DNA from: a virus
DNA: 64,000 bases
Reading direction: 5' to 3' (one strand)
Virus record (IMG/VR): IMGVR_UViG_3300042090_000646
Coordinates: 14,564 to 78,563 of that record
The first letter of the stretch is position 1, and every line of letters begins with the position of its first letter. The translations under genes and the position numbers were made by a program. Positions 13,217 to 63,454 of the stretch are shown piece by piece. The notes below the pieces were generated by a model that made no database searches, was not told the origin of the DNA, and saw nothing but the letters and a program-made list of their open reading frames with translations.

Positions 13217-14518
13217 ATGGGCTCATCCCTCGGCTTCCAAGTCCGTGATTGGACCAGCTACACCCAGACGATGGCATCCTGGATCGCCTCCAACCCCTCC
13301 TTAGTGCCAGGATTCAATCTGCCCAGCGACATGATCGAGGGTTCCTTGGAACGGGCCCACCTTGAGGCCCTGGCCATGGTCATGGAGGACTATGACATCC
13401 GGGCCCAGAAGGCCGTCGACTATGCAGCCAACAACGCGGTCTACAATGCCTTTGGCTTCCCCTACCTTTCGGCGAGCCCGTCCCTGGGCCAGGTGACCTT
13501 TACCGCTCTGGTCGCCCCGGCCGCCAATATCGACATCCCCACGGGAACCAAGCTCGGGACCAGCACCGGGGTCCAGTTCGTCACCACCCAAGACGCCACC
13601 TTGGAGGCCGGTTCCTTCACAGTGGTCTCCGTCCCGGTTCAGGCAGCAACCACCGGAACTGCCACCAACGTCCCGGCCTCGTCCATCAGTCGGATCCTCT
13701 ACCCCATCGCTGGGGTGGACCAGGTGACCAATCCCCAGGCAACCTGCGGCGGGACTGATCCGGAAACTCCTGCCGCCCGTCAGACCCGGTTTCAATCCTG
13801 GGTCAATACCCTGACGAGGGGGACCCTTCAGGCTCTGGAATATGCGTCCGTTTCGGTCGCCCAATGCGGCGTGATCGATGCCCTGGCGGTCGAGCCGTTC
13901 AATATGACTCCTCCGCAAGGCTCCGTGGGTAACGTGTGGGTGTTCCTGGACAACGGACTCGGCTCGGCAGTCGTGCCGGGTGCCATCGCCTCAGCTATCA
14001 ACGGGACTGGCGGGGTCGGCGGGGTCATGAACGGCTATCCTGGTCCCAATAATACCTTCGTCCCTGGCTGGGCCGCCGCGGGGATACAGGTGATCCTGAA
14101 GCCGGTCCTCTATGCCAACGTGTTCTTGACGGCTGCCGTCGTCACGAATTCCCACGGGAAAGGCCGGTTCGGTGATATCCAGGCAGCTCTTTCTGCCGCC
14201 GCGACCACCTATTTCAATGCCGTGACCATCGGCCAGCCGGTGATCTATCACGAGTTGTTGGTGGCCCTCTCCCTGGCCGACCCGGACATCCAGAGCATCA
14301 CGCTCCAGATGGGTCTGGAATCGACCCCTGGCACCCTCGCAAGCCTGATCTGGAACCCATCCGCGGGAGGAATGGACAACACCGTCTATGCCACCCTGGC
14401 GAGCCACCCAATCCTATTTGGCTCTGACTTCACCTGGAACCAGAATGACCCGGTCCAGGTCGGTTCGCGGTATGTCCTCCAGAACGATGCCACCTATCCC
14501 ATCTGGAACCTTTCATGA
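13217..14518 (+). CDS. Baseplate J/gp47-family wedge protein
   Basis: GQVTF..IPTGT..FVTT..VPVQA..VTNP..GGTDPET..RF..RGT..ALEY signature. Confidence 0.9.
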   Translation: MGSSLGFQVRDWTSYTQTMASWIASNPSLVPGFNLPSDMIEGSLERAHLEALAMVMEDYDIRAQKAVDYAANNAVYNAFGFPYLSASPSLGQVTFTALVAPAANIDIPTGTKLGTSTGVQFVTTQDATLEAGSFTVVSVPVQAATTGTATNVPASSISRILYPIAGVDQVTNPQATCGGTDPETPAARQTRFQSWVNTLTRGTLQALEYASVSVAQCGVIDALAVEPFNMTPPQGSVGNVWVFLDNGLGSAVVPGAIASAINGTGGVGGVMNGYPGPNNTFVPGWAAAGIQVILKPVLYANVFLTAAVVTNSHGKGRFGDIQAALSAAATTYFNAVTIGQPVIYHELLVALSLADPDIQSITLQMGLESTPGTLASLIWNPSAGGMDNTVYATLASHPILFGSDFTWNQNDPVQVGSRYVLQNDATYPIWNLS

Positions 14519-54346: not shown

Positions 54347-54583
54347 GCCCCTTTGAAAAATATTTCCTGATTATCGGCGAGCCTCAGCCTAAAGCACCAC
54401 CATTCCCGGGTGGGGAAACCCCGCGCTGCCCGCGCTTCTCCTGAAAACTCCGCTGAGCGGGAGCTTCGCCACGGGCTCGGTGGTGCCAATTGAGAATGTT
54501 CTCTGGGGACATGGTTCACGCCTAAGGCGAAACAAAAACGAATGCCGTGTTTCCGCCGCCCCATACTTGAGGCAGGAGATGCC

Positions 54584-55540
54584 ATGGCCAGCTACGACAT
54601 CCAGTTCCAGAAGGGGCTCTCGCTGCGGGATTTCATGGCTGGCTATGGCACCGAGGACAAGTGCATCGAGGCCGTCTGCAAGGCCCGCTGGCGTGACGGA
54701 TTCGTTTGCCCCGAGTGCGGGTCAGCCCGGCACTGCCGCCTCGCCAGGGGCCTGTTCCAGTGCCAGGAATGCCGTCACCAGACCAGTCCCACGGCGGGAA
54801 CCATCTTCCAGGGCACCAAACTGCCGCTCACGGTCTGGTTTCAGGCCATGCACCTGCTCACCCAGGGCAAGCATTCCGTCTCCGCTCTGGAGTTGAAACG
54901 CCAACTCGGGGTCTGCTATGAAACGGCCTGGGCCATCAAGCACAAGCTCATGGAGGTGATGCTGGAGCGCGAGGAGAAGACCGTCCTGTCTGGCCGGATC
55001 GAGGTGGACGACGCCTATGTCGGCGGCGAGAGCCACGAGGGCAAGCGGGGCCGGGGAGCAGCGGGAAAGACGCCGTTCGTGGTGGCGGTGATGACCGACC
55101 CGGACCACCCGGCCTCCGTGCTGCACATGCGGATGAAGGCACTCAAGCACGTGGACATGAAGGAACTGCGGGCGTGGTTCTCGTCCGGCTTCGTGCAGGG
55201 TTCCAAGGTGCTCACCGATGGGTGGAAGGCATACAACTTCCTGGGCGAAGCCGGGTTCGAGCATGAGGCCCATGTCAGCCCCGGCGGTTGGCGTTCCGCC
55301 AAGAGCCCCCTGTTCCCTTGGGTGAATACGGTCCTGGGCAACCTGAAGGGCAACATCGTCGGCGTCACCCGCTGGATCAGCCGGGGGCACCTGGACCGGT
55401 ACCTCGCGGAATTCAGCTACCGCTTCAACCGGCGGTTCGATCTGAAGTCCATGCTCCCGCGCCTGCTCACGGCGGCGGTCCAGACCCCGGCTATGCCCCA
55501 GCCGCTCCTAAAACTGGCCTGGATGGGGAAGGCTGCCTAA
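54584..55540 (+). CDS. IS1595-family transposase
   Basis: CPEC..CQEC Zn ribbon, EVDDAYVGG, LTDG, WVN..NLK, YLAEFSYRFNRR. Confidence 0.95.
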   Translation: MASYDIQFQKGLSLRDFMAGYGTEDKCIEAVCKARWRDGFVCPECGSARHCRLARGLFQCQECRHQTSPTAGTIFQGTKLPLTVWFQAMHLLTQGKHSVSALELKRQLGVCYETAWAIKHKLMEVMLEREEKTVLSGRIEVDDAYVGGESHEGKRGRGAAGKTPFVVAVMTDPDHPASVLHMRMKALKHVDMKELRAWFSSGFVQGSKVLTDGWKAYNFLGEAGFEHEAHVSPGGWRSAKSPLFPWVNTVLGNLKGNIVGVTRWISRGHLDRYLAEFSYRFNRRFDLKSMLPRLLTAAVQTPAMPQPLLKLAWMGKAA

Positions 55541-56691
55541 TCGTCTTCTTCAGCAGCCAGGGCCTCTTCTTGTTCTTCATCGTCGGCGGCAGGAGGCGCG
55601 ATGCCAATCAGCGAGGGGAATGGCGCAACGGCCATCATCTCTTGAAGGTTGGCGAGGGTGAAAACTCGGCCCTCGGTGTCCCGAACCACAGGCCCCAGCG
55701 TGTCATTCGTTCTCGTCCACCCCATTCCGCCCAGAACCGCGACCAGAGGGACCCCGTTCAGTCGGGCGCATTCCGCCCGGAGGGTAGTGAAGCGCGAAGC
55801 CTTGTCCCTGGCAGTCCCCCCATCGTTGATGGTCTTGCATTCGAGCATGGCCCGAAGGGTCCCGGATTGATCGAACACAACGAAGTCAGGGGCTGGGGCG
55901 ACCGTGACCTCGAATCTTTCAGCGATGGCTCCCTGGTCATGGCCGCCGGTACGGATGTAGGGGATTCGGTTCTTCTTGAACAGGGCTTCTACTGCATCCT
56001 CGAAAAGGTCACCCCGCTTGGTTGAGGTGGCATCAAGAAGCTGCCGGAACGCGCCTCCGTAGTGTCGTTGATGCAGGAACAAGGCGTAGGGGACGCCACC
56101 AGCGGCGAACTGCTGAACCTGCGGCCACCCGTCATGGGTATCCGGTTTCACCTGCTTGCTGTGAGGGTCCCCTGGCGTCCGACCGAAAAGGCTGCCATCC
56201 ATGACCCGATAGAGAGTTTTGGCTGCTACCAGCGCAATCTCCCCCTTGGCGCTGGTGCCCTTCCGCTCCATGGAACCAACCTTGCCCTTTGAGATCGGCT
56301 TTAAGGCAAGGGGCTTCGCAACAATCTTAGTCGTTTGCGCAAACTCGTCGCGCAGTAGGCCAGTGATCGTGCGGAAGACCAGAAGGGTGCGGGGATCTTC
56401 TTCGATAATCCGCGCCAGGTCTGCTTCTGAAACCAAAGTGAAACCGTGGCTTGCTCTTTCTGCGGAGGCGTACACCTCCGTGAAGTATTCGGGCTCGTAG
56501 AACAGTGACTCACGGACATACGCAAAGTCCGGGACCAGATGCGGGACATACAATGCCTTGGCGATGTTGGCGTAGATTTCGGGGTGTTCACCGTTCCCGT
56601 GATGCTGGGGAATCAATCGGATCTGCGCAACGCGTTTGTCCCACGTTTCCGCTGCCGCAATCTTCTGTACGGTTTCATCTACTGTTGGCAC
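55537..56691 (-). CDS. Putative type II restriction endonuclease (PD-(D/E)XK)
   Basis: GDLFEDAVE..APDFVV..MLECK; directly downstream of the methylase. Confidence 0.75.
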   Translation of the reverse strand: MPTVDETVQKIAAAETWDKRVAQIRLIPQHHGNGEHPEIYANIAKALYVPHLVPDFAYVRESLFYEPEYFTEVYASAERASHGFTLVSEADLARIIEEDPRTLLVFRTITGLLRDEFAQTTKIVAKPLALKPISKGKVGSMERKGTSAKGEIALVAAKTLYRVMDGSLFGRTPGDPHSKQVKPDTHDGWPQVQQFAAGGVPYALFLHQRHYGGAFRQLLDATSTKRGDLFEDAVEALFKKNRIPYIRTGGHDQGAIAERFEVTVAPAPDFVVFDQSGTLRAMLECKTINDGGTARDKASRFTTLRAECARLNGVPLVAVLGGMGWTRTNDTLGPVVRDTEGRVFTLANLQEMMAVAPFPSLIGIAPPAADDEEQEEALAAEEDD

Positions 56692-56695
56692 AATC

Positions 56696-57586
56696 TCACC
56701 CTATGAGGGTGAGCATACCAGGAAGATCGTTAGCGATGTTTTCCGCGATCCTGCGACGCGCCTCATCCACAAACTGCGAATGGATCTCAAACCCTCCGGC
56801 TCGCCGCCCCAACTGCTTTGCCACAACAACCGTGGTGCCTCCCCCGGCAAACGGATCGACAACGACCCCGCCTTCGGGTGACGCAGCTTTGATGAAGAAC
56901 TCTGCCAGCCCCTCGGGCATCGCAGCGGTATGAGCCACCCCACGGTACTGGTTGTAGGTTTGGGGCACTGAAACGACATTGCCTGGATCCGCTCCACCCA
57001 GCAGGTAGGTTTTCGTGCGATCACGCCCGAACCCCGCATCAGTGTTGCGTCTGCCGAGGGTGTCGTTCTTCCGGCGGGCGATCTCTGCCGCGTCCGCCTT
57101 GTAGGGCACACGCACGGCATCCAGGTCGAAGAATGGCTTGGGACCTCGGGCAAAGTGGAAGACATACTCATAGCTGTCCTTGGTGCGGGGCCCGAATTTG
57201 CCCGGCACCGCGTTTGGCTTCGCCCAGATGTAGGTTTCCACCCATCGCCAGCCCATGGACTGAAGGGCAAGGACCAACTGAAAGACATAGGGGTGACGCT
57301 GCCCTTTCAGTGGGCCACGATTAGCCACCCGGTTCTTGATGTTGATGATGAGGCTGCCGGTTTCGCTGGTCGCATCAAACATCGCACGGGCAAAGGGGAG
57401 GAACCACTCTACGTAGGTGTCCGGGTGGATGCGGCTATAGGCCCTCGCGTCGGCATAGGGGGGGCTAGTGAAGAACAGGTCAACGCTGCCCTTCGGCAGC
57501 TTCGGCAGCCAGTCGAGTGAGTCTCCTTGGATGATGCCCTTTTCGAGGAGCTGGGCTAGCACCTTGGAACCGTTGCTCTTGGTCAT
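56696..57586 (-). CDS. DNA methyltransferase (N4-C/N6-A, beta class)
   Basis: FTSPPY..IWAKPN..HTAAMP..VDPFAGGGTT. Confidence 0.93.
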   Translation of the reverse strand: MTKSNGSKVLAQLLEKGIIQGDSLDWLPKLPKGSVDLFFTSPPYADARAYSRIHPDTYVEWFLPFARAMFDATSETGSLIINIKNRVANRGPLKGQRHPYVFQLVLALQSMGWRWVETYIWAKPNAVPGKFGPRTKDSYEYVFHFARGPKPFFDLDAVRVPYKADAAEIARRKNDTLGRRNTDAGFGRDRTKTYLLGGADPGNVVSVPQTYNQYRGVAHTAAMPEGLAEFFIKAASPEGGVVVDPFAGGGTTVVVAKQLGRRAGGFEIHSQFVDEARRRIAENIANDLPGMLTLIG

Positions 57587-57792
57587 CGCCGCCCCCTCCC
57601 GCCAGACTGCTGGGGCAACTGGGCATAACCCTGAACATAGATGGCCACGGCTTCGCGCACGATGCAGCCAATGGAAACGCGCTTCTCGTAGGAGATGTCC
57701 TCCAGCGCACTGTATATCTCTTGTTCGAAACTCACGGTCGTTCTCACATCCAGAAGAGGGCGTCGTTTGGGCTTATGGCTGGGGTTCGGCAT
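57583..57792 (-). CDS. Ribbon-helix-helix controller protein
   Basis: RTTVSFEQEIYSALEDIS..VSIGCIVREAV; ATGA-coupled to the methylase. Confidence 0.8.
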   Translation of the reverse strand: MPNPSHKPKRRPLLDVRTTVSFEQEIYSALEDISYEKRVSIGCIVREAVAIYVQGYAQLPQQSGGRGRR

Positions 57793-58640: not shown

Positions 58641-58886
58641 CTACTCCTTGACCTTGGCCCGGAAATTCTGGGTGGCGAAGTTCCAGGATGTAAGGGTGGC
58701 CAAGAGGGCTCCGACTGGGACGGGGATTGCGGAGAACATCCGATAGGCTTTCGGGGTCGTATCGAAGGCACGGATAACTACGTCCTCTAGTTCCGCCACT
58801 CGATCCCGGAGGGAGTCCGTCCAGGCTCGCCATTGGTCTATGGTCTGGGGCTCGCCACTCGGGGGATAGGGTGGTCTTGGCATCAT
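58641..58886 (-). CDS. Hypothetical protein
   Basis: ATGA-coupled to thyX. Confidence 0.5.
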   Translation of the reverse strand: MMPRPPYPPSGEPQTIDQWRAWTDSLRDRVAELEDVVIRAFDTTPKAYRMFSAIPVPVGALLATLTSWNFATQNFRAKVKE

Positions 58887-59533
58887 GCCTCCTTGCCGAA
58901 GGGCTCGAAAACGGTGGGAGCCAGGACCACCAGCTCTGTCCGGATCATCTCGGCTATAACGCGCATGTCCGGATGGGCCGCCGGGGCCAGACGCAGGGAT
59001 AGGAAATGCCTCCACTCCCGAAAGTTGGCGGTCATGACGATCTCGGTCTTGAGGCATGTGGGGAGGACGGATCGGGCATCCTGTGGCTTGGTTCCACATG
59101 CCAGTAGTGCCAGATAGGCCCGCTCGGAGTCCTGCATCGCCAAGGTCCAGGCGCCCTTACCGAGGGATACGGTAGATGCGTCCTCGTGGAGACTGGAGAT
59201 ATTGGAGGGCTGGACGACCGTGATCTCCTCGCTGAACTTTCCCTTGCCGTAGTTGCAGTAGCGGGTGGATTCCTGGCTGTAGCTGGCCAGCCGATGCCGC
59301 ACTAGCTCATGGCTGATGCCGCGGTCGCAGACGATGATGAACCCGGCGCTGGCATGTTCCAGGACTGATTCGTGGGGCTTGGCGGGGTCCAGGAGCCTCC
59401 GGATGAATTCGACGTGGCTGTCGGCGGTGATCCGGTCCTCGGACTTGTAGCATGTCCTTCCGGCACGCTCGATGACCAGTTCGGGATCGGGGGTGGCGTG
59501 GAGAAGGGTGACGGAGGGGGAGATAACTTTCAT
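58883..59533 (-). CDS. thyX: Flavin-dependent thymidylate synthase
   Basis: HESVLEH, HELVRHRLASYSQESTRY, ARSVLP, NFREWRHF. Confidence 0.95.
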   Translation of the reverse strand: MKVISPSVTLLHATPDPELVIERAGRTCYKSEDRITADSHVEFIRRLLDPAKPHESVLEHASAGFIIVCDRGISHELVRHRLASYSQESTRYCNYGKGKFSEEITVVQPSNISSLHEDASTVSLGKGAWTLAMQDSERAYLALLACGTKPQDARSVLPTCLKTEIVMTANFREWRHFLSLRLAPAAHPDMRVIAEMIRTELVVLAPTVFEPFGKEA

Positions 59534-59763
59534 GGGGCTCCTTTGAGTTTCTTCTCGATATAGAGGATTCGCCGCTCACGACGTTCTTGGGCCGACATCA
59601 TCTCGGAGTATCCGGGGACGCCGCAGCAGGGGCAGCAAACGCCACCATCTAACCAGAATTCCCGCTCGATATCGGCCATCCGGAAATCTACCCGCTGCAC
59701 CTTGGCCTTTAACGCGGTTAGCTCCGCTCGTAGCGGGGATGGGTCCCGATGCGGTTTTCTCAT
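59530..59763 (-). CDS. Small Cys-containing hypothetical protein
   Basis: RBS aggagga; CCPCC. Confidence 0.5.
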   Translation of the reverse strand: MRKPHRDPSPLRAELTALKAKVQRVDFRMADIEREFWLDGGVCCPCCGVPGYSEMMSAQERRERRILYIEKKLKGAP

Positions 59764-59840
59764 CCGGTCCTCCTGGAGGTGCCATCGTTCAGGCGCTGGG
59801 CAGCCTTATTCGGCTGCCAAAATAAATTTGTGTTTGGAGG

Positions 59841-59869
59841 TTGACGTATCGGACATTCTGTCCGATACT
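59841..59869 (+). promoter_or_regulatory. Sigma70 promoter with a perfect palindromic operator
   Basis: TTGACG-17 bp-GATACT; GTATCGGACA-TTC-TGTCCGATAC at 59846-59868; AT-rich UP element. Confidence 0.8.
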
Positions 59870-59910
59870 TTCCGTGTTGGGCAACGAACCCACAACCACA
59901 GGGAGAAGAG

Positions 59911-60153
59911 ATGCGGCGAATCGATGTGAACTTCAACGGTCAGGAATTCACCTTCCGTTCCAACGACTCCGGCGAATACCTGTTCACGGGCGTTTCGGTC
60001 AACAACCAGATTTCCTGCGAGTCCGGGTTCGACTCCCTCCGCCGCATGAAGTCCGCGATCCGCGAGCATCTCCGCAACAAGATGGGCGCTGGCGTGACCG
60101 ACTTCCCGCGCATTGCCTATACCCCCGATAGCCATTCCGACTGGAAACCGTAA
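59911..60153 (+). CDS. Small hypothetical protein, candidate anti-defence protein
   Basis: First gene of the promoter-to-HTH cassette; RBS ggag. Confidence 0.65.
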   Translation: MRRIDVNFNGQEFTFRSNDSGEYLFTGVSVNNQISCESGFDSLRRMKSAIREHLRNKMGAGVTDFPRIAYTPDSHSDWKP

Positions 60154-60165
60154 TAGGAGGTTGAG

Positions 60166-60336
60166 ATGCGAATCGCCCTGGTGCATAACCACTATGAGCA
60201 GGATCACCTTGACCTGGTTGTCAAGGAAATGCGGACCCTGGGCGCGCCGGTCCTCCGGGCCGTCTGGATGGACTGCTGGGGCATGTGGGCCGCACTGGAG
60301 GGATGCCACCGCCTCCAGATCATCGAGTTTGTGTGA
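60166..60336 (+). CDS. 56-aa ParB/Srx-like fragment
   Basis: RBS aggagg; HLDLVVKEMRTLGAPVLRAVW..ALEGCHRL; stop overlaps the HTH start. Confidence 0.6.
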   Translation: MRIALVHNHYEQDHLDLVVKEMRTLGAPVLRAVWMDCWGMWAALEGCHRLQIIEFV

Positions 60337-60530
60337 TGGGCCGCCCCACCACCCTTCCGGAACCCTGGCGCTCCCTGGCCGTGAAACTGGGGGGCGTCCA
60401 AGCCCTGGCCGAGGTGCTGGACTGCGACGAGCGCACCGTCCGGCGTTGGGCCGAGGAGATGCCCCGCTCACGACGCGCCAGGGATTGGATCCTAGCGGCT
60501 TTCCACCAGGCAGGAATCCCGCCCCCGTGA
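60336..60530 (+). CDS. Cro/Aca-like HTH repressor (64 aa)
   Basis: LGGVQALAEVLDCDERTVRRWA. Confidence 0.8.
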   Translation: MGRPTTLPEPWRSLAVKLGGVQALAEVLDCDERTVRRWAEEMPRSRRARDWILAAFHQAGIPPP

Positions 60531-60542
60531 GGGGGCTTTTTC
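60521..60542 (+). terminator. Rho-independent terminator closing the cassette
   Basis: GCCCCC-GTGA-GGGGGC-TTTTTT. Confidence 0.85.
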
Positions 60543-60585
60543 GTGGGCTGGCGGAGGCGGTGAGCATCGGGGGAATCCTGGACAG

Positions 60586-60873
60586 TTACCTGCCCTTGAT
60601 GGCTTCGCGGACGACAGGAAGCAGGTTCTCGGCGTCACAGCGCAGGGGTTCATCGGAGATCGCCCACCGGAGCCCGAGGGCTCGGTTCATCCGACCCGTC
60701 TCCGGCATCGTCATGTGGGCCAGGAGGACTTCGACGCGCCCCAGGACATGCTCCAGAGTCCTGATCCGCTCGGCGCAAGTCGGGCAGGTCGATCCGGGGT
60801 TGAGGTAGTTGCCGTGGGTTCCGCAGTTGCCGGGCATGTCGTTCCTTTCAAGATGGGTGGTGCAAGTGGACAT
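60586..60873 (-). CDS. Hypothetical protein
   Basis: C..HG..CPTC; WAISDEPLR. Confidence 0.5.
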   Translation of the reverse strand: MSTCTTHLERNDMPGNCGTHGNYLNPGSTCPTCAERIRTLEHVLGRVEVLLAHMTMPETGRMNRALGLRWAISDEPLRCDAENLLPVVREAIKGR

Positions 60874-61170
60874 CTACGCCCGGCGGGCGTGAATGATGGT
60901 TTGACGATTCTGGCGGTGGGTCTGCATCTCGTAGTGGGGCATCAGCGCCTCGTCGTTGACGCGCACCTCTCCGCCAGCCTCCGAGACGATGGCGGCGAGC
61001 ATGATCCGAGCACCCCGGGCTTCCGCCTCCAGTTCCGCGACCCGGGACTTCACGGACGCCAGGGCGGCTTCAACCTGCTGCTGGTCCTCCTGGGTGGTTG
61101 GGGCGAAATCCAGGTGCCTGATGGCTTCCTGGATGCAGGCAATGGGCTCTTCGGGGAGCCAGCGATCCAT
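60874..61170 (-). CDS. Hypothetical protein (AGG-motif family)
   Basis: MLAAIVSEAGGEVRV; RBS aagga. Confidence 0.55.
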   Translation of the reverse strand: MDRWLPEEPIACIQEAIRHLDFAPTTQEDQQQVEAALASVKSRVAELEAEARGARIMLAAIVSEAGGEVRVNDEALMPHYEMQTHRQNRQTIIHARRA

Positions 61171-61210
61171 GGCAGGTTCCTTTCTGGCGCGGGATGCTTC
61201 TGGACATTCG

Positions 61211-61540
61211 TTAACGGGGGATGTAGTAGCCTTCACCGGAGCACTTGTCGCACTGGGTATCCACGCTCCGGTCTCCGGAGGCATAGACGAGACGGCCACG
61301 CCCTCGACAGTCGGGACAGACCACCTTGTCGCGCTCCTTCTGAAGTTCGCGCTTGGTCCGCGCCAGTTCCTCATGGACCGGGTTCTCAGGGACGTAGAAC
61401 GCCATGTCCATGCACTCGCGTCCGCCTTCAACGTCATCAGCCACGGCTCGGATCTGCTCGCGGGTCGCGGTGATGCCGTGTTCTTCAAAGGACTGCGCAA
61501 GGCATTCCTCCCAGTAGTCGAGTTTCAGGGTGTCGGTCAT
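61211..61540 (-). CDS. Protein with DnaJ-type CxxCxGxG zinc-finger pair
   Basis: CPDCRGRG..CDKCSGEG. Confidence 0.65.
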   Translation of the reverse strand: MTDTLKLDYWEECLAQSFEEHGITATREQIRAVADDVEGGRECMDMAFYVPENPVHEELARTKRELQKERDKVVCPDCRGRGRLVYASGDRSVDTQCDKCSGEGYYIPR

Positions 61541-61603
61541 GGCTACCTCGGGATGGTTTTAGACAGGACCGGCCCTCGTTGGTGCGGGGCCAGGAGCGGA
61601 ACC

Positions 61604-61993
61604 TTACCAAGGCCATCCGGCGGCGCGGGCCTTCTTCTCGTTCCCGGGCTCTAGGCGGAACGGATCACCATCCCATGCCACCCGCTTGCTCCACCCGCCC
61701 TTGGTGAGCGGAAAGATCACCCAGCCCTCTGGGGCAGAGGCAACGAGGTGGTGAACTCCGTCCGGTGCCTCGCCGCTCATGGCATGGTAAACCTTGAAGT
61801 AGTCGTCGGGGAGGCGCATGTCCTCAATCTTGGACGCCACCACTGCATCCATAGACCTCTCATTGCAGGCCCAGCGGCGCATGGTCCTGACTTCCAAACC
61901 CAGACGGGTAGCCAGTTTAATGACACCCCCTTCACGCGCCGCCAGGGGCCCCCAGAATCCGGGCAACGTGATTGGTCGACCCATTTTGGCCAT
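61604..61993 (-). CDS. Cro/Aca-like HTH protein with an extra C-terminal domain
   Basis: MGRPITLPGFWGPLAAREGGVIKLATRLGLEVRTMRRWA; RBS aggagga. Confidence 0.75.
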   Translation of the reverse strand: MAKMGRPITLPGFWGPLAAREGGVIKLATRLGLEVRTMRRWACNERSMDAVVASKIEDMRLPDDYFKVYHAMSGEAPDGVHHLVASAPEGWVIFPLTKGGWSKRVAWDGDPFRLEPGNEKKARAAGWPW

Positions 61994-62009
61994 GTCGTCC
62001 TCCTGGCCC

Positions 62010-62038
62010 ATTGTAGGCCATTTGGACCCTATATTCAG
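62010..62038 (-). promoter_or_regulatory. Promoter/operator of the HTH gene
   Basis: CTGAAT-atagggtccaaatggcc-TACAAT. Confidence 0.55.
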
Positions 62039-62058
62039 ATGGCCCGTCCCGTCGCTGC

Positions 62059-62274
62059 TCACGACGCTACTCGGGCATTATTGCGGTCGGGGATGGAGAA
62101 CATGGACTCGGTATTGTCGGGGCTGGTCAACGTGGCCTTGGTGTCGTGGCACAGCTCGCATTCGTGGAACCGAACGAGCTGGGGCCAGGGGCGCTCTGGG
62201 GTCCGGGGGATCCAGTCCTCGCGGATCACCTTCCATCGGCAGCCACCCTTGGCAAGGCAGATGAGTCTGGGCAT
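62059..62274 (-). CDS. Small Cys-containing hypothetical protein
   Basis: Start overlaps the upstream stop; CELC. Confidence 0.45.
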   Translation of the reverse strand: MPRLICLAKGGCRWKVIREDWIPRTPERPWPQLVRFHECELCHDTKATLTSPDNTESMFSIPDRNNARVAS

Positions 62275-62833: not shown

Positions 62834-63340
62834 TCAGAAGCCGCACTTCTCGGCGCACACGGGGCCCACGCCCAAAGCAATGGAACCCGGATCCGTCAAC
62901 TCGCGCCCGCAGATGACACAGCAACCGGTCTGGTGGCCCATGGCGGCAGCCTGTTCCAGGGTCAGCTTATGGGCTAGAGTCAGCTTGGCGATCTTGCCCT
63001 TCCCGGCCTCATAGCTGTAGGTGCCCTTCCCTGCCCCGCTGACCTGGAAAGCCATAGCGTAGCGGTGAGTGGGGTCGGCCTTACTGGAGCGCACTTTGTA
63101 GATGATGCCGTCGAGCTGGTAGAACCCCACCGGCACCAGGGGCGTCTGGGGACCCTGCCCGGTCTTGGGCAGCCATGGGAGACCCTTCATCTCGTCGATG
63201 GCCTTGGAGACCTGGAAAGAGGACGCTTTGCCCTTCTTGGCCGCCTCGACTACCGAAGTGTTCCAAGGGGCCTTGGATAGGTCGCGGCTGGCGGCCAGGG
63301 TGGTAAGGAAGTTGATCTGCTTCTCGGTAGGGAGGTTCAT
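62834..63340 (-). CDS. DUF6011-domain protein
   Basis: PTEKQINFL N-terminus; CVICGRELTDPGSIALGVGPVCA. Confidence 0.8.
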   Translation of the reverse strand: MNLPTEKQINFLTTLAASRDLSKAPWNTSVVEAAKKGKASSFQVSKAIDEMKGLPWLPKTGQGPQTPLVPVGFYQLDGIIYKVRSSKADPTHRYAMAFQVSGAGKGTYSYEAGKGKIAKLTLAHKLTLEQAAAMGHQTGCCVICGRELTDPGSIALGVGPVCAEKCGF

Positions 63341-63361
63341 CTCGTTCTCCTTCGATGCCAC

Positions 63362-63390: not shown

Positions 63391-63454
63391 GTGATACAGA
63401 AAAATATTTTTTTGGACGTTCATGGACGTAGAATGTCGCACAAAGGGGTTTGAC

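What the first reader, a model, noticed from the sequence alone, without database searches (positions are those of the whole stretch)
59799..60542. Self-contained acr/aca-like cassette inserted against the local gene direction
Seen: UP element, TTGACG-17-GATACT promoter containing a perfect 10-bp-arm palindrome, two small ORFs (80 and 56 aa), a coupled 64-aa HTH gene and a terminator, all on + within a minus-strand region. Known: anti-CRISPR operons have strong promoters with inverted repeats repressed by a downstream HTH Aca protein. Inference: the small ORFs are candidate new anti-defence proteins and the HTH a new Aca-like marker.
Basis: partly seen in the sequence, partly recalled or inferred. 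Interest (0 to 1): 0.75.

Follow-up and report, generated by a model that had tools for sequence, protein, structure and literature searches.

The report
Self-regulated phage accessory-gene cassette
A temperate phage carries a compact, self-contained gene cassette (promoter with built-in operator, small cargo genes, a small DNA-binding repressor, terminator); in related phages the same frame carries quite different small cargo genes, as anti-CRISPR (acr-aca) operons do, but what the cargo does is still unknown.

Summary
Window 59797-60545 (+) is an autonomous unit among minus-strand genes. It holds an upstream hairpin, an A/T tract, TTGACG-17-GATACT with a perfect 10+10 palindrome in the spacer, ORF1 (80 aa), ORF2 (56 aa), a stop/start-overlapping 64-aa HTH, and a terminator with the HTH stop codon in its loop.

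In 23 other loci, HTH homologues sit behind small upstream ORFs, mostly with overlapping stop/start. These ORFs fall into 22 BLASTP-unrelated families. Eleven distinct loci share the promoter, with a TCGG-N8/9-CCGA dyad in most spacers. Pairwise homology stops at the cargo borders.

ORF1 is a real orphan gene (dN/dS 0.12-0.20, confident novel-looking fold). ORF2 is not a new protein. It is an internally deleted remnant of a ~105-aa ParB/sulfiredoxin-like family. That family is intact in a sibling cassette (L027), and elsewhere it precedes other small regulators, including an Aca2/YdiL-like one.

The best reading is a new Aca-like autorepressor family on a portable cargo cassette. Anti-defence function of the cargo is unproven: no cargo matches a known Acr, and one relative carries hicAB. 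This is a new member of a known kind. The same scan had only noted the paralogous HTH in this window.

The parts
59797..59820 (+). Upstream hairpin (TGGGCAGCC-ttattc-GGCTGCCAA), a likely insulator against read-through. In relatives, G/C-clamped A/T palindromes occupy this place.
59819..59836 (+). A/T-rich UP-like tract (AAAATAAATTTGTGTTT). It is conserved as AAAATATTTTTT in sibling cassettes. The left border of homology to L007 is at 59819.
59841..59869 (+). Sigma-70-type promoter TTGACG-17-GATACT, present in 11 distinct related loci.
59846..59868 (+). Putative operator: a perfect 10-bp-arm palindrome (3-nt centre) that fills the promoter spacer; its right arm overlaps the -10. The core TCGG-N8/9-CCGA is kept in most relatives.
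59870..59910 (+). Leader with a conserved GGG-N7-CCC dyad (59879-59891), CACAAC, and RBS AGGGAG (59900-59905). The dyad may be a second weak operator or a 5' stem-loop; covariation was not shown.
59911..60153 (+). ORF1: an 80-aa orphan cargo protein that is soluble and near-neutral (pI 7.9). Its confident model (pLDDT 84) has four strands, a helix and a fifth strand and has no known relative. It is under purifying selection.
60166..60336 (+). ORF2: a 56-aa remnant made of the first ~52 residues of a ~105-aa ParB/sulfiredoxin-like mini-protein joined to its last few codons. The block 60155-60332 is absent from L007, L008 and L014.
60336..60530 (+). 64-aa Cro/XRE-like HTH with four helices and an invariant N-terminal arm M-x-RPTTLPEPWRSLA. 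Its start overlaps the ORF2 stop (TGATG). It is the putative autorepressor (Aca-like).
60521..60545 (+). Intrinsic terminator whose stem is made of the last Pro codons of the HTH, with the stop codon in the loop. The right border of homology to L007 is at 60545.

Best explanation
This is a portable, negatively autoregulated accessory-gene cassette, that is, a moron with its own repressor, in the early/accessory region of a temperate phage.

Proposed mechanism:
1. When the DNA enters a cell without the HTH, the strong promoter (A/T tract, TTGACG-17-GATACT) fires.
2. One short mRNA gives ORF1, the ORF2 remnant and, through the overlapping stop/start, the HTH.
3. The HTH, probably as a dimer, then occupies the palindrome that fills the -35/-10 spacer and shuts the promoter down to a low steady level.
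4. The hairpin upstream and the terminator built into the last HTH codons insulate the unit from the opposing phage operon.

The frame (promoter, operator, leader, HTH, terminator) is conserved and moves between phages, and the cargo between the RBS and the HTH start is exchanged. In this window the working cargo is ORF1, an orphan soluble protein. ORF2 is a decayed ParB/Srx-like cargo that now mainly carries ribosomes to the HTH start.

Shown here: the anatomy, conservation of the frame, exchange of cargo, purifying selection, and uniqueness of the operator. Inferred: HTH-operator binding, repression, and the role of the cargo. My best guess for the cargo is an inhibitor of a host defence or another host function made early in infection, at about 0.4. 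That figure is for the cargo role alone; the confidence given for this explanation is for the regulatory reading.
For: Anatomy.

HTH family:
- 39 protein clusters with an invariant N-terminal motif.
- The arm is conserved at the protein level, because synonymous sites vary freely.
- The fold is a four-helix Cro/XRE type. Closest are TP901-1 MOR and Xfaso-1 Cro, with Aca1 weaker.

Association:
- In 23 loci the HTH follows a small ORF, with a 1-nt stop/start overlap in 17 of the other loci.
- 29 cargo ORFs fall into 22 BLASTP-unrelated families. All are without a TM segment, and 14 of 24 are acidic.

Frame conservation with cargo exchange:
- L004 and L005 share only 456 nt, which is the cassette itself, within unrelated flanks.
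- WIN and L007 share 59819-60154 and 60333-60545 but not ORF2.
- L012 shares only the promoter block and the HTH block with L003 and L011.
- L005 and L027 are distantly syntenic phages with different cargo at the same site.

Operator:
- The promoter occurs in 11 distinct loci, most of them with TCGG-N8/9-CCGA in the spacer.
- 74/110 symmetric positions are complementary, against 17-26 with the partner slid. In L009, C-G became A-T and A-T became G-C.
- The site is unique in the phage record.

Link to a bona fide Aca family:
- The ParB-like cargo, intact in sibling cassette L027, also precedes an Aca2/YdiL-like regulator in L067: PF08965, 25.2 bits against a cutoff of 23.8.
- It precedes other HTHs in L047, L071, L072 and L073, and a 122-aa protein with no Pfam match in L076.
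- L047, L071, L072 and L076 each carry their own palindrome in the promoter spacer.

ORF1: dN/dS 0.12-0.20.
Against: - No cargo ORF matches any anti-CRISPR, anti-defence or defence family in Pfam, PHROGs or PADLOC.
- The only recognisable cargo is a HicA/HicB toxin-antitoxin pair (L021/L022), which is not an anti-defence function.
- The host and its defence systems are unknown.
- The HTH does not reach the cutoff of any curated family, including Aca2_YdiL.
- Part of the dyad conservation may be inherited with the promoter, because its right arm is the -10.
- In L004 a further gene is coupled downstream of the HTH, and in L014 the ORF1-HTH pair has no promoter of its own directly upstream. The unit is therefore not always self-contained.
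- No binding or expression experiment exists.
Confidence: 0.6

Rival explanations
1. Same autoregulated cassette, but the cargo serves the lysogen. It would be a lysogenic-conversion, superinfection-exclusion or small defence/addiction function expressed at a low steady level from the prophage, not a counter-defence protein made at infection.
For: In L007/L008 the cassette lies between a tRNA-like att remnant and the integrase/excisionase genes, a classic moron position. One relative carries hicAB. Negative autoregulation gives constant low expression, which suits prophage-expressed genes. The region is present in contigs of two wetland RNA libraries. This is a weak hint only, because strand and level are unknown and DNA carry-over is possible.
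Against: The cargo proteins are 43-185 aa, soluble and mostly acidic orphans without TM segments. That is unlike typical exclusion proteins or multi-domain defence systems, and there are no PADLOC hits. In L004, L005 and L027 the cassette lies among early/replication or packaging genes rather than at the att end.
Confidence: 0.2
2. A type II toxin-antitoxin module with reversed gene order (like higBA or hicAB): ORF1 or ORF2 is the toxin and the HTH is the antitoxin and autorepressor.
For: The layout fits: a small gene followed by an HTH with overlapping stop/start, and a palindromic operator in the promoter. The HTH gives weak hits to YdaS_toxin, HigA2 and Xre antitoxin structures. There is a HicA/HicB context in L021.
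Against: The same highly conserved 64-aa HTH sits behind 22 unrelated partners. It has only a four-helix DNA-binding core and no extra toxin-binding domain. In L021 the toxin already has its own HicB antitoxin. ORF1 and the other cargo match no toxin family. ORF2 is a gene remnant.
Confidence: 0.07
3. The HTH is the phage's Cro/MOR-type lysis-lysogeny switch regulator, and the small ORFs are ordinary early genes.
For: The closest folds are Cro and MOR proteins. P22_Cro is the best Pfam match, at 22.9 bits and below its cutoff. A paralogous, longer HTH protein lies 1 kb away on the other strand at 61604-62062. The region is next to the integrase.
Against: The operator occurs once in the 78.5-kb record, inside the cassette's own promoter. 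There is no divergent repressor gene sharing the control region; the gene across the intergenic space is a 77-aa protein followed by ThyX. The cassette sits at unrelated places in different phages: after a YqaJ-like gene, between terminase and NinB-like genes, and next to att/int.
Confidence: 0.06
4. A chance arrangement of ORFs and motifs in GC-rich DNA; nothing functional.
For: High-GC DNA gives many spurious ORFs: 104 ORFs of 30 aa or more in 8 kb.
Against: There is purifying selection and GC3 0.81 in all three frames. The same frame recurs in 23 independent loci. The palindrome gave zero matches in 100 shuffles.
Confidence: 0.02

Closest known systems
acr-aca operons (Aca1 of Pseudomonas phage JBD30, Aca2 of Pectobacterium phage ZF40; PMC6765145, PMC8633003, PMC9410906, PMC13551039)
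   Same: A small HTH gene comes last in a short operon of small variable genes. An inverted repeat lies inside the operon's own strong promoter, and the logic is negative autoregulation. The same cargo family occurs with different regulators, and the same regulator occurs with different cargo. There is a possible second dyad in the 5' leader.
   Different: No cargo is a known or homologous Acr. The HTH is not a sequence member of Aca2_YdiL, and it resembles the Aca1 structure only weakly (Foldseek E 2.6). One relative regulates hicAB. The host and any CRISPR context are unknown. The single operator fills the whole spacer, rather than forming the two repeats described for Aca1.
Phage morons (autonomous promoter-gene-terminator units between phage genes)
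   Same: The unit has its own promoter and terminator, runs opposite to its neighbours, is found at different places in different phages, and has discrete homology borders.
   Different: It carries a dedicated autorepressor and an exchangeable cargo slot. Classical morons have no regulator of their own.
Cro/CI-type and MOR switch regulators (P22 Cro PF14549, Xfaso-1 Cro 3bd1, TP901-1 MOR 6tri)
   Same: A small all-helical HTH fold of about 65 aa, encoded by a phage.
   Different: There is a single operator in its own promoter, no divergent repressor partner, and a variable genomic position. The score is below the Pfam cutoff. The invariant N-terminal RPTTLPEPW arm does not occur in these proteins, as far as the alignments here show.
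Reversed-order type II TA systems (HigBA, HicAB) and R-M controller (C) proteins
   Same: A small HTH autoregulator is co-transcribed with the gene it controls, and a palindromic operator overlaps the promoter.
   Different: The HTH has no toxin-binding extension, and its upstream partners are unrelated to one another. C proteins lie upstream of the gene they control, whereas this HTH lies downstream.
ParB/sulfiredoxin (Srx) superfamily (for ORF2 only)
   Same: The ALEGCHR motif is present, and the family profile matches sulfiredoxin 6ky4 (E 0.0025). One member gives a weak ParB_N hit.
   Different: The family is a stand-alone ~105-aa protein with an acidic tail and no HTH or dimerisation domain. 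The window's copy keeps only about half of it.

Membership tests
Aca (anti-CRISPR-associated) regulators / acr-aca operon | Small HTH (or RHH) gene directly downstream of, and co-directional with, small ORFs in one operon | tested here: met
   stop/start overlap of 1 nt here and in 17 other loci
Aca (anti-CRISPR-associated) regulators / acr-aca operon | Homologues of the regulator are associated with variable, unrelated upstream genes | tested here: met
   22 BLASTP-unrelated cargo families; homology stops at the cargo borders
Aca (anti-CRISPR-associated) regulators / acr-aca operon | Inverted repeat in the operon's promoter that the regulator binds to repress transcription | tested here: inconclusive
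   The repeat is present and conserved in position, with two compensatory changes. Binding and repression need EMSA or a reporter and cannot be tested with these tools.
Aca (anti-CRISPR-associated) regulators / acr-aca operon | At least one associated upstream gene is a validated Acr or a homologue of one | tested here: not met
   of 24 cargo ORFs only HicA and HicB are recognised. Only Pfam, PHROGs and PADLOC were available; no dedicated Acr or anti-defence database.
Aca (anti-CRISPR-associated) regulators / acr-aca operon | Sequence membership in a named family (Aca1-Aca14) | tested here: inconclusive
   No Aca2_YdiL (PF08965) hit. The Aca1 structure 7vjn matches only at Foldseek E 2.6 with 28% identity over 54 columns. 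No models were available for the other Aca families.
Phage moron | Own promoter and terminator; a discrete block present at different sites or absent in related genomes | tested here: met
Type II toxin-antitoxin (HTH antitoxin downstream) | A conserved cognate toxin partner, and an antitoxin with a toxin-neutralising region | tested here: not met
   unrelated partners; a 64-aa four-helix protein without an extra domain
Cro/CI genetic switch | Several operators shared with a divergently transcribed repressor gene; fixed position in the immunity region | tested here: not met
   a single site; variable position
Pfam P22_Cro (PF14549) / YdaS_toxin (PF15943) | Score above the gathering threshold | tested here: not met
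   22.9 bits against 30.2, and 14.6 against 30
ParB/Srx superfamily (ORF2) | Complete ParB-N/Srx domain including the helix after the (D/E)GxHR motif | tested here: not met
   ORF2 aligns to residues 1-52 of ~105-aa relatives and then ends. The full family matches sulfiredoxin at E 0.0025.

The most novel reading that the evidence does not exclude
The RPTTLPEPW-HTH is a new Aca-type marker in environmental phages. The ~20 orphan families in its cargo slot, among them ORF1 and the ~105-aa ParB/sulfiredoxin-like mini-protein that also pairs with an Aca2-like and other small regulators, would then be new anti-defence proteins. The ParB/Srx-like one might act on a nucleotide or a nucleotide signal of a defence system.
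Probability: 0.35. Interest if true: 0.7.

Novelty: new member of a known kind. Interest (0 to 1): 0.55.

Why it matters
Regulator-based guilt by association is the main route to new anti-CRISPR and anti-defence proteins. The known Aca families come mostly from cultivated Proteobacteria and Firmicutes.

This is a compact, well-delimited cassette frame whose regulator matches no curated family tested here. It comes from uncultivated wetland and other metagenome phages. Its cargo slot already gives about 20 orphan protein families to test.

It also singles out a widespread ParB/sulfiredoxin-like mini-protein, with 127 clusters at 50% identity, that is repeatedly placed under tight autoregulation by at least five kinds of small regulator.

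The cassette is also a neat natural example of a minimal insulated expression unit: the operator fills the promoter spacer, and the terminator is built from the last codons of the repressor.

Tried and rejected
Tools that were not available:
The contexts of the 39 HTH clusters could only be sampled through the search for related loci.

Searches that gave little or nothing:
- blastn of the cassette against GenBank phages: no match.
- The genome-contig scan gave one locus only.
- A search for an empty site in a related phage failed. The 95-aa neighbour has no relative, and the 77-aa neighbour has one relative without synteny.
- The strict promoter pattern in IMG/VR gave 6 hits. Two were already known. 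One has the promoter and leader but no HTH within the ~1.3 kb examined downstream (L085). One has a different HTH. Two look like chance.
- The ESM Atlas gave no lead for ORF1.
- NCBIfam gave nothing above cutoff.

Ideas considered and dropped:
- ORF1 as a HicB-like domain. There is no Pfam or PHROG HicB hit. HicB is not among the fold matches, where the best Z is 4.4 and T7 Gp2, PurS and AcrIF24 are all at noise level.
- ORF2 as HicA-like or as an intact mini-ParB. This was replaced by the deletion-remnant reading.
- A leader RNA structure. RNAalifold keeps only three invariant G-C pairs and shows no covariation.
- The N-terminal motif as a DNA recombination site. Rejected, because synonymous sites vary freely.

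RNA-library contigs:
- Two wetland RNA libraries hold contigs covering 59958-61253 and 59991-60695.
- Neither RNA library has a contig over 59608-59910, while the DNA contig runs on. That gap cannot be interpreted.
- Contigs give no strand or level.

Full report
**Setting.** The window is bases 14564-78563 of a 78.5-kb IMG/VR virus record that is linear and about 56% complete. The right end of the window is an early/accessory region of a temperate phage. It holds:
- a tyrosine integrase at 63422 running off the end (+);
- a DUF6011 protein;
- small minus-strand ORFs;
- a Q-like zinc-ribbon protein;
- ThyX (58883-59533, -);
- an RHH-methylase-DpnII-like operon next to an IS1595 transposase.

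**Observation.**
- Promoter: TTGACG (59841) - 17 nt - GATACT (59869).
- Palindrome: a perfect GTATCGGACA-ttc-TGTCCGATAC at 59846-59868, inside the spacer.
- A/T tract: 59819-59836, preceded by a hairpin at 59797-59820.
- Genes: ORF1 59911-60153, ORF2 60166-60336, and an HTH gene at 60336-60530 whose ATG overlaps the ORF2 stop.
- Terminator: 60521-60541.

The palindrome occurs once in the window and once in the whole record, and never in 100 shuffles even with three mismatches. The + frames are the real genes. GC3 is 0.81-0.82, as in ThyX, against 0.59 for the 253-aa antisense ORF. dN/dS against relatives is 0.10-0.29. All neighbours on both sides are on the minus strand.

**The HTH.**
- It scores below the cutoff of every curated family. 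The best are P22_Cro at 22.9 bits against 30.2, then HTH_23, then YdaS.
- It has 39 related clusters among 5.8 billion proteins, nearly all 64-70 aa, with an invariant N-terminus M-x-RPTTLPEPWRSLA-x-KLGGV.
- This arm is kept at the protein level, because synonymous sites in it vary freely.
- The AlphaFold model (pLDDT 83) is a four-helix Cro/XRE-type bundle behind a less ordered arm.
- The nearest solved folds are TP901-1 MOR, Xfaso-1 Cro, N15 Cro and Xre antitoxins, with Aca1 weaker. All have poor E-values, as expected for so small a domain.
- A 152-aa paralogue with the same N-terminal motif lies at 61604-62062 on the minus strand.

- In 23 loci the HTH follows a small ORF on the same strand.
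- In 17 of these other loci the stop and start overlap by one base, as they do in the window.
- The upstream ORFs differ from locus to locus. The 29 cargo ORFs fall into 22 families with no BLASTP similarity at E 1e-3.
- They are 43-185 aa, have no TM segment, and are acidic in 14 of 24 cases.
- Only a HicA and a HicB in L021/L022 match anything in Pfam, PHROGs or PADLOC.

**A conserved frame around an exchangeable slot.** Eleven distinct loci share the promoter. The shared features are:
- an A/T tract, often a G/C-clamped A/T palindrome;
- TTGAC(G/A/T);
- a 16-18 nt spacer that in most begins (A/T)(A/T)TCGG and ends CC;
- GATACT;
- in most loci, a leader with GGG-N7-CCC, CACAAC and GGAG.

Pairwise blastn shows that homology stops at the cargo borders.
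- L004 and L005 share only 456 nt, which is the cassette, within unrelated flanks.
- L012 shares only a promoter block and an HTH block with L003 and L011.
- The window and L007 share 59819-60154 (84%) and 60333-60545 (85%). The 178 nt between these blocks, which is ORF2, is missing from L007, L008 and L014.

L005 and L027 are distantly syntenic phages: the NinB-like protein is 50% identical and the small-terminase-like protein 35%. Both carry the cassette at the same place against the local gene direction, but with different cargo. In L007/L008 the ORF1-HTH cassette lies between a tRNA-like att remnant and the integrase/excisionase genes. In many members the terminator stem is formed by the final Pro codons, with the stop codon in the loop.

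**Operator.** Over 11 aligned promoters, 74 of 110 symmetric positions of the 10+10 dyad are complementary, against 17-26 when one arm is slid by 1-3 nt. The TCGG/CCGA core is kept in most. L009 has a different palindrome at the same place (TTTAGGACG-tgg-CGTCCTATA), with two both-sided changes: C-G became A-T and A-T became G-C. The right arm overlaps the -10, so part of this conservation comes with the promoter. The left arm has no promoter role.

With a single site in the phage, inside the spacer of its own promoter, the simplest reading is steric autorepression. The leader dyad could be a second weak site or a 5' stem. RNAalifold supports only three invariant G-C pairs and no covariation. 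A recent paper reports RNA motifs in the leaders of acr-aca operons that Aca1 and Aca2 bind (PMC13551039), so this is worth testing, but it is not shown here.

**ORF1.** It has only seven related clusters plus L014 and is under purifying selection, with dN/dS 0.12-0.20. The model is confident (pLDDT 84) and consists of four strands, a helix and a fifth strand. Foldseek against PDB and BFVD, and VIA-align against 48,161 chains, give nothing above noise; the best Z is 4.4. It is a genuine orphan protein. It forms a conserved pair with the HTH in L007, L008 and L014.

**ORF2.** An exhaustive HMMER search found 127 representatives at E <= 1e-3. Nearly all are about 100-125 aa long and all align to ORF2 residues 1-52 only. 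The family reads M-x-I-x-L-x-H-x-H-Y-D...LGAP-x-I-x-AVW...ALEGCHR-[IL]-RAA-x-x-LGL...acidic tail...F-E-E. Its profile matches sulfiredoxin 6ky4 at E 0.0025, and one member touches ParB_N weakly. ORF2 stops right after EGCHR with QIIEFV, which resembles the family's C-terminal I-x-F-E end. So ORF2 is an in-frame internal deletion of about 50 codons that keeps the 3' end overlapping the HTH start.

L027 is the intact sibling. It has the same promoter and operator (TTGACG TATCGGACAgccTGcCCGATACT), a 104-aa ParB-like gene, a coupled HTH (69% identical) and the terminator. ORF2 is therefore a cargo remnant, not a new small protein.

**The ParB-like family links this HTH to a known Aca family.**
- In 57 viral loci that carry the family, only L027 has this HTH directly downstream.
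- Five others have a different small HTH directly downstream. L047, L071, L072 and L073 are of HTH_3/HTH_31/Xre-like type. L067 reaches the Pfam cutoff of Aca2/YdiL-like (PF08965, 25.2 against 23.8 bits).
- A few more loci (L043, L045, L049, L076) have small downstream proteins that look like regulators by eye but have no significant Pfam match.
- L047, L071, L072 and L076 each have their own palindrome between -35 and -10. Examples are TTGACA-ACCGCTACAaTGTAGCGG-TATACT in L076 and two copies of TACGCACgaTTGCGTA in L047.

So one cargo occurs with many regulators and one regulator with many cargos. That is the pattern that defines acr-aca loci. It makes the ParB-like protein a reasonable anti-defence candidate, but by association only.

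**Function.** Well supported at the sequence level: a portable unit made of an insulated strong promoter, an operator, a cargo slot, an autorepressor and a terminator. Inferred: HTH binding and repression.

The role of the cargo is open. For counter-defence:
- the acr-aca-like logic;
- small soluble, often acidic orphans;
- the shared cargo with an Aca2-like regulator.

Against it, or for a lysogen-benefit role:
- no known Acr among the cargo;
- hicAB as cargo in one lineage;
- the att-int position in L007.

A TA reading is unlikely. One conserved 64-aa four-helix protein cannot plausibly neutralise 22 unrelated partners, and HicA already has HicB. A Cro-type switch role is unlikely because of the single autoregulatory site and the variable position.

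**Expression.** Contigs from two wetland metatranscriptome libraries of different studies cover 59958-61253 and 59991-60695. A DNA run of the likely source sample covers everything. Both RNA sets begin within ORF1 while the DNA goes on, which is a weak hint of a transcript boundary near the cassette's 5' end. Contigs give neither strand nor level, and DNA carry-over cannot be excluded.

**Verdict.** This is a candidate new Aca-like regulator family on an exchangeable cargo cassette, that is, a new member of a known kind. ORF1 is a worthwhile candidate, ORF2 is a remnant, and the intact ParB/Srx-like family is the more interesting lead.

Noticed in passing
L007:186-221 and 861-896 (also 238-259, 819-837): The ORF1-HTH cassette of L007/L008 is bracketed by 36-nt inverted repeats (94% complementary) that contain repeated CCGGCAAAT..GGTTGAA units, two on each side. 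It lies between a tRNA-like remnant and the integrase (907-2043, -) plus an excisionase-like gene. The repeats may be integrase arm-type sites or the ends of a small mobile unit.
   Followed up: partly
window 61604-62062 (-): A 152-aa paralogue of the HTH with the same N-terminal motif (MGRPITLPGFW...) plus a C-terminal extension with no family match (E 2.6e-13 to the HTH profile). It may be a second regulator of the same phage.
   Followed up: partly
L021:3472-4198 and L022:3702-4198: In low-GC relatives the HTH follows hicA-hicB. The HicB here is only 81-93 aa, that is, the HicA-binding domain without a DNA-binding domain. The separate HTH may therefore supply the operator-binding part of a three-gene hicAB operon. 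L021 holds a second hicAB copy about 1 kb downstream.
   Followed up: no
L025-L081 (57 viral loci); e.g. L067:2474-3045, L076:714-1409, L047:1787-2344: A stand-alone ~105-aa ParB/sulfiredoxin-like protein family with an acidic tail is common in viral contigs and matches no Pfam, PHROG or NCBIfam model. It is often followed by a small regulator (one Aca2/YdiL-like) and preceded by a promoter with a palindrome in the spacer.
   Followed up: partly
L014:2819-4486: Two cassettes lie in tandem, each ending in a member of the HTH family: an 89-aa ORF, a hairpin, the ORF1 homologue and an HTH; then an AT-rich promoter, a 71-aa ORF and a second HTH; then an 81-aa zinc-ribbon/TM protein.
   Followed up: no
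L085 (minus strand, promoter at 13578-13606): The same promoter, spacer dyad and leader drive a 151-aa ORF, an 88-aa ORF and a 78-aa protein that by eye shares the Cys-rich C-terminal motif of the window's DUF6011 protein. No HTH of this family lies within the ~1.3 kb examined downstream. This may be a trans-regulated second operon. The window also has a DUF6011 protein at 62834-63361.
   Followed up: no
L024:4001-4081: This HTH homologue is cut by a stop after 26 codons (MSRPTTLPEPWRSLAITLAFFVPSAL*). It is a decayed copy behind an intact 73-aa cargo ORF.
   Followed up: no
window 54542-57792: An IS1595-family transposase (DDE_Tnp_IS1595 plus zinc ribbon) converges on an RHH - N6/N4 methylase - DpnII-like endonuclease operon. 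This agrees with another first-reader note on this window.
   Followed up: partly
window 58800-61800: Near-identical DNA is present in a wetland metagenome run that is probably the source. Parts of the region are in contigs of two wetland metatranscriptome libraries from other studies.
   Followed up: partly
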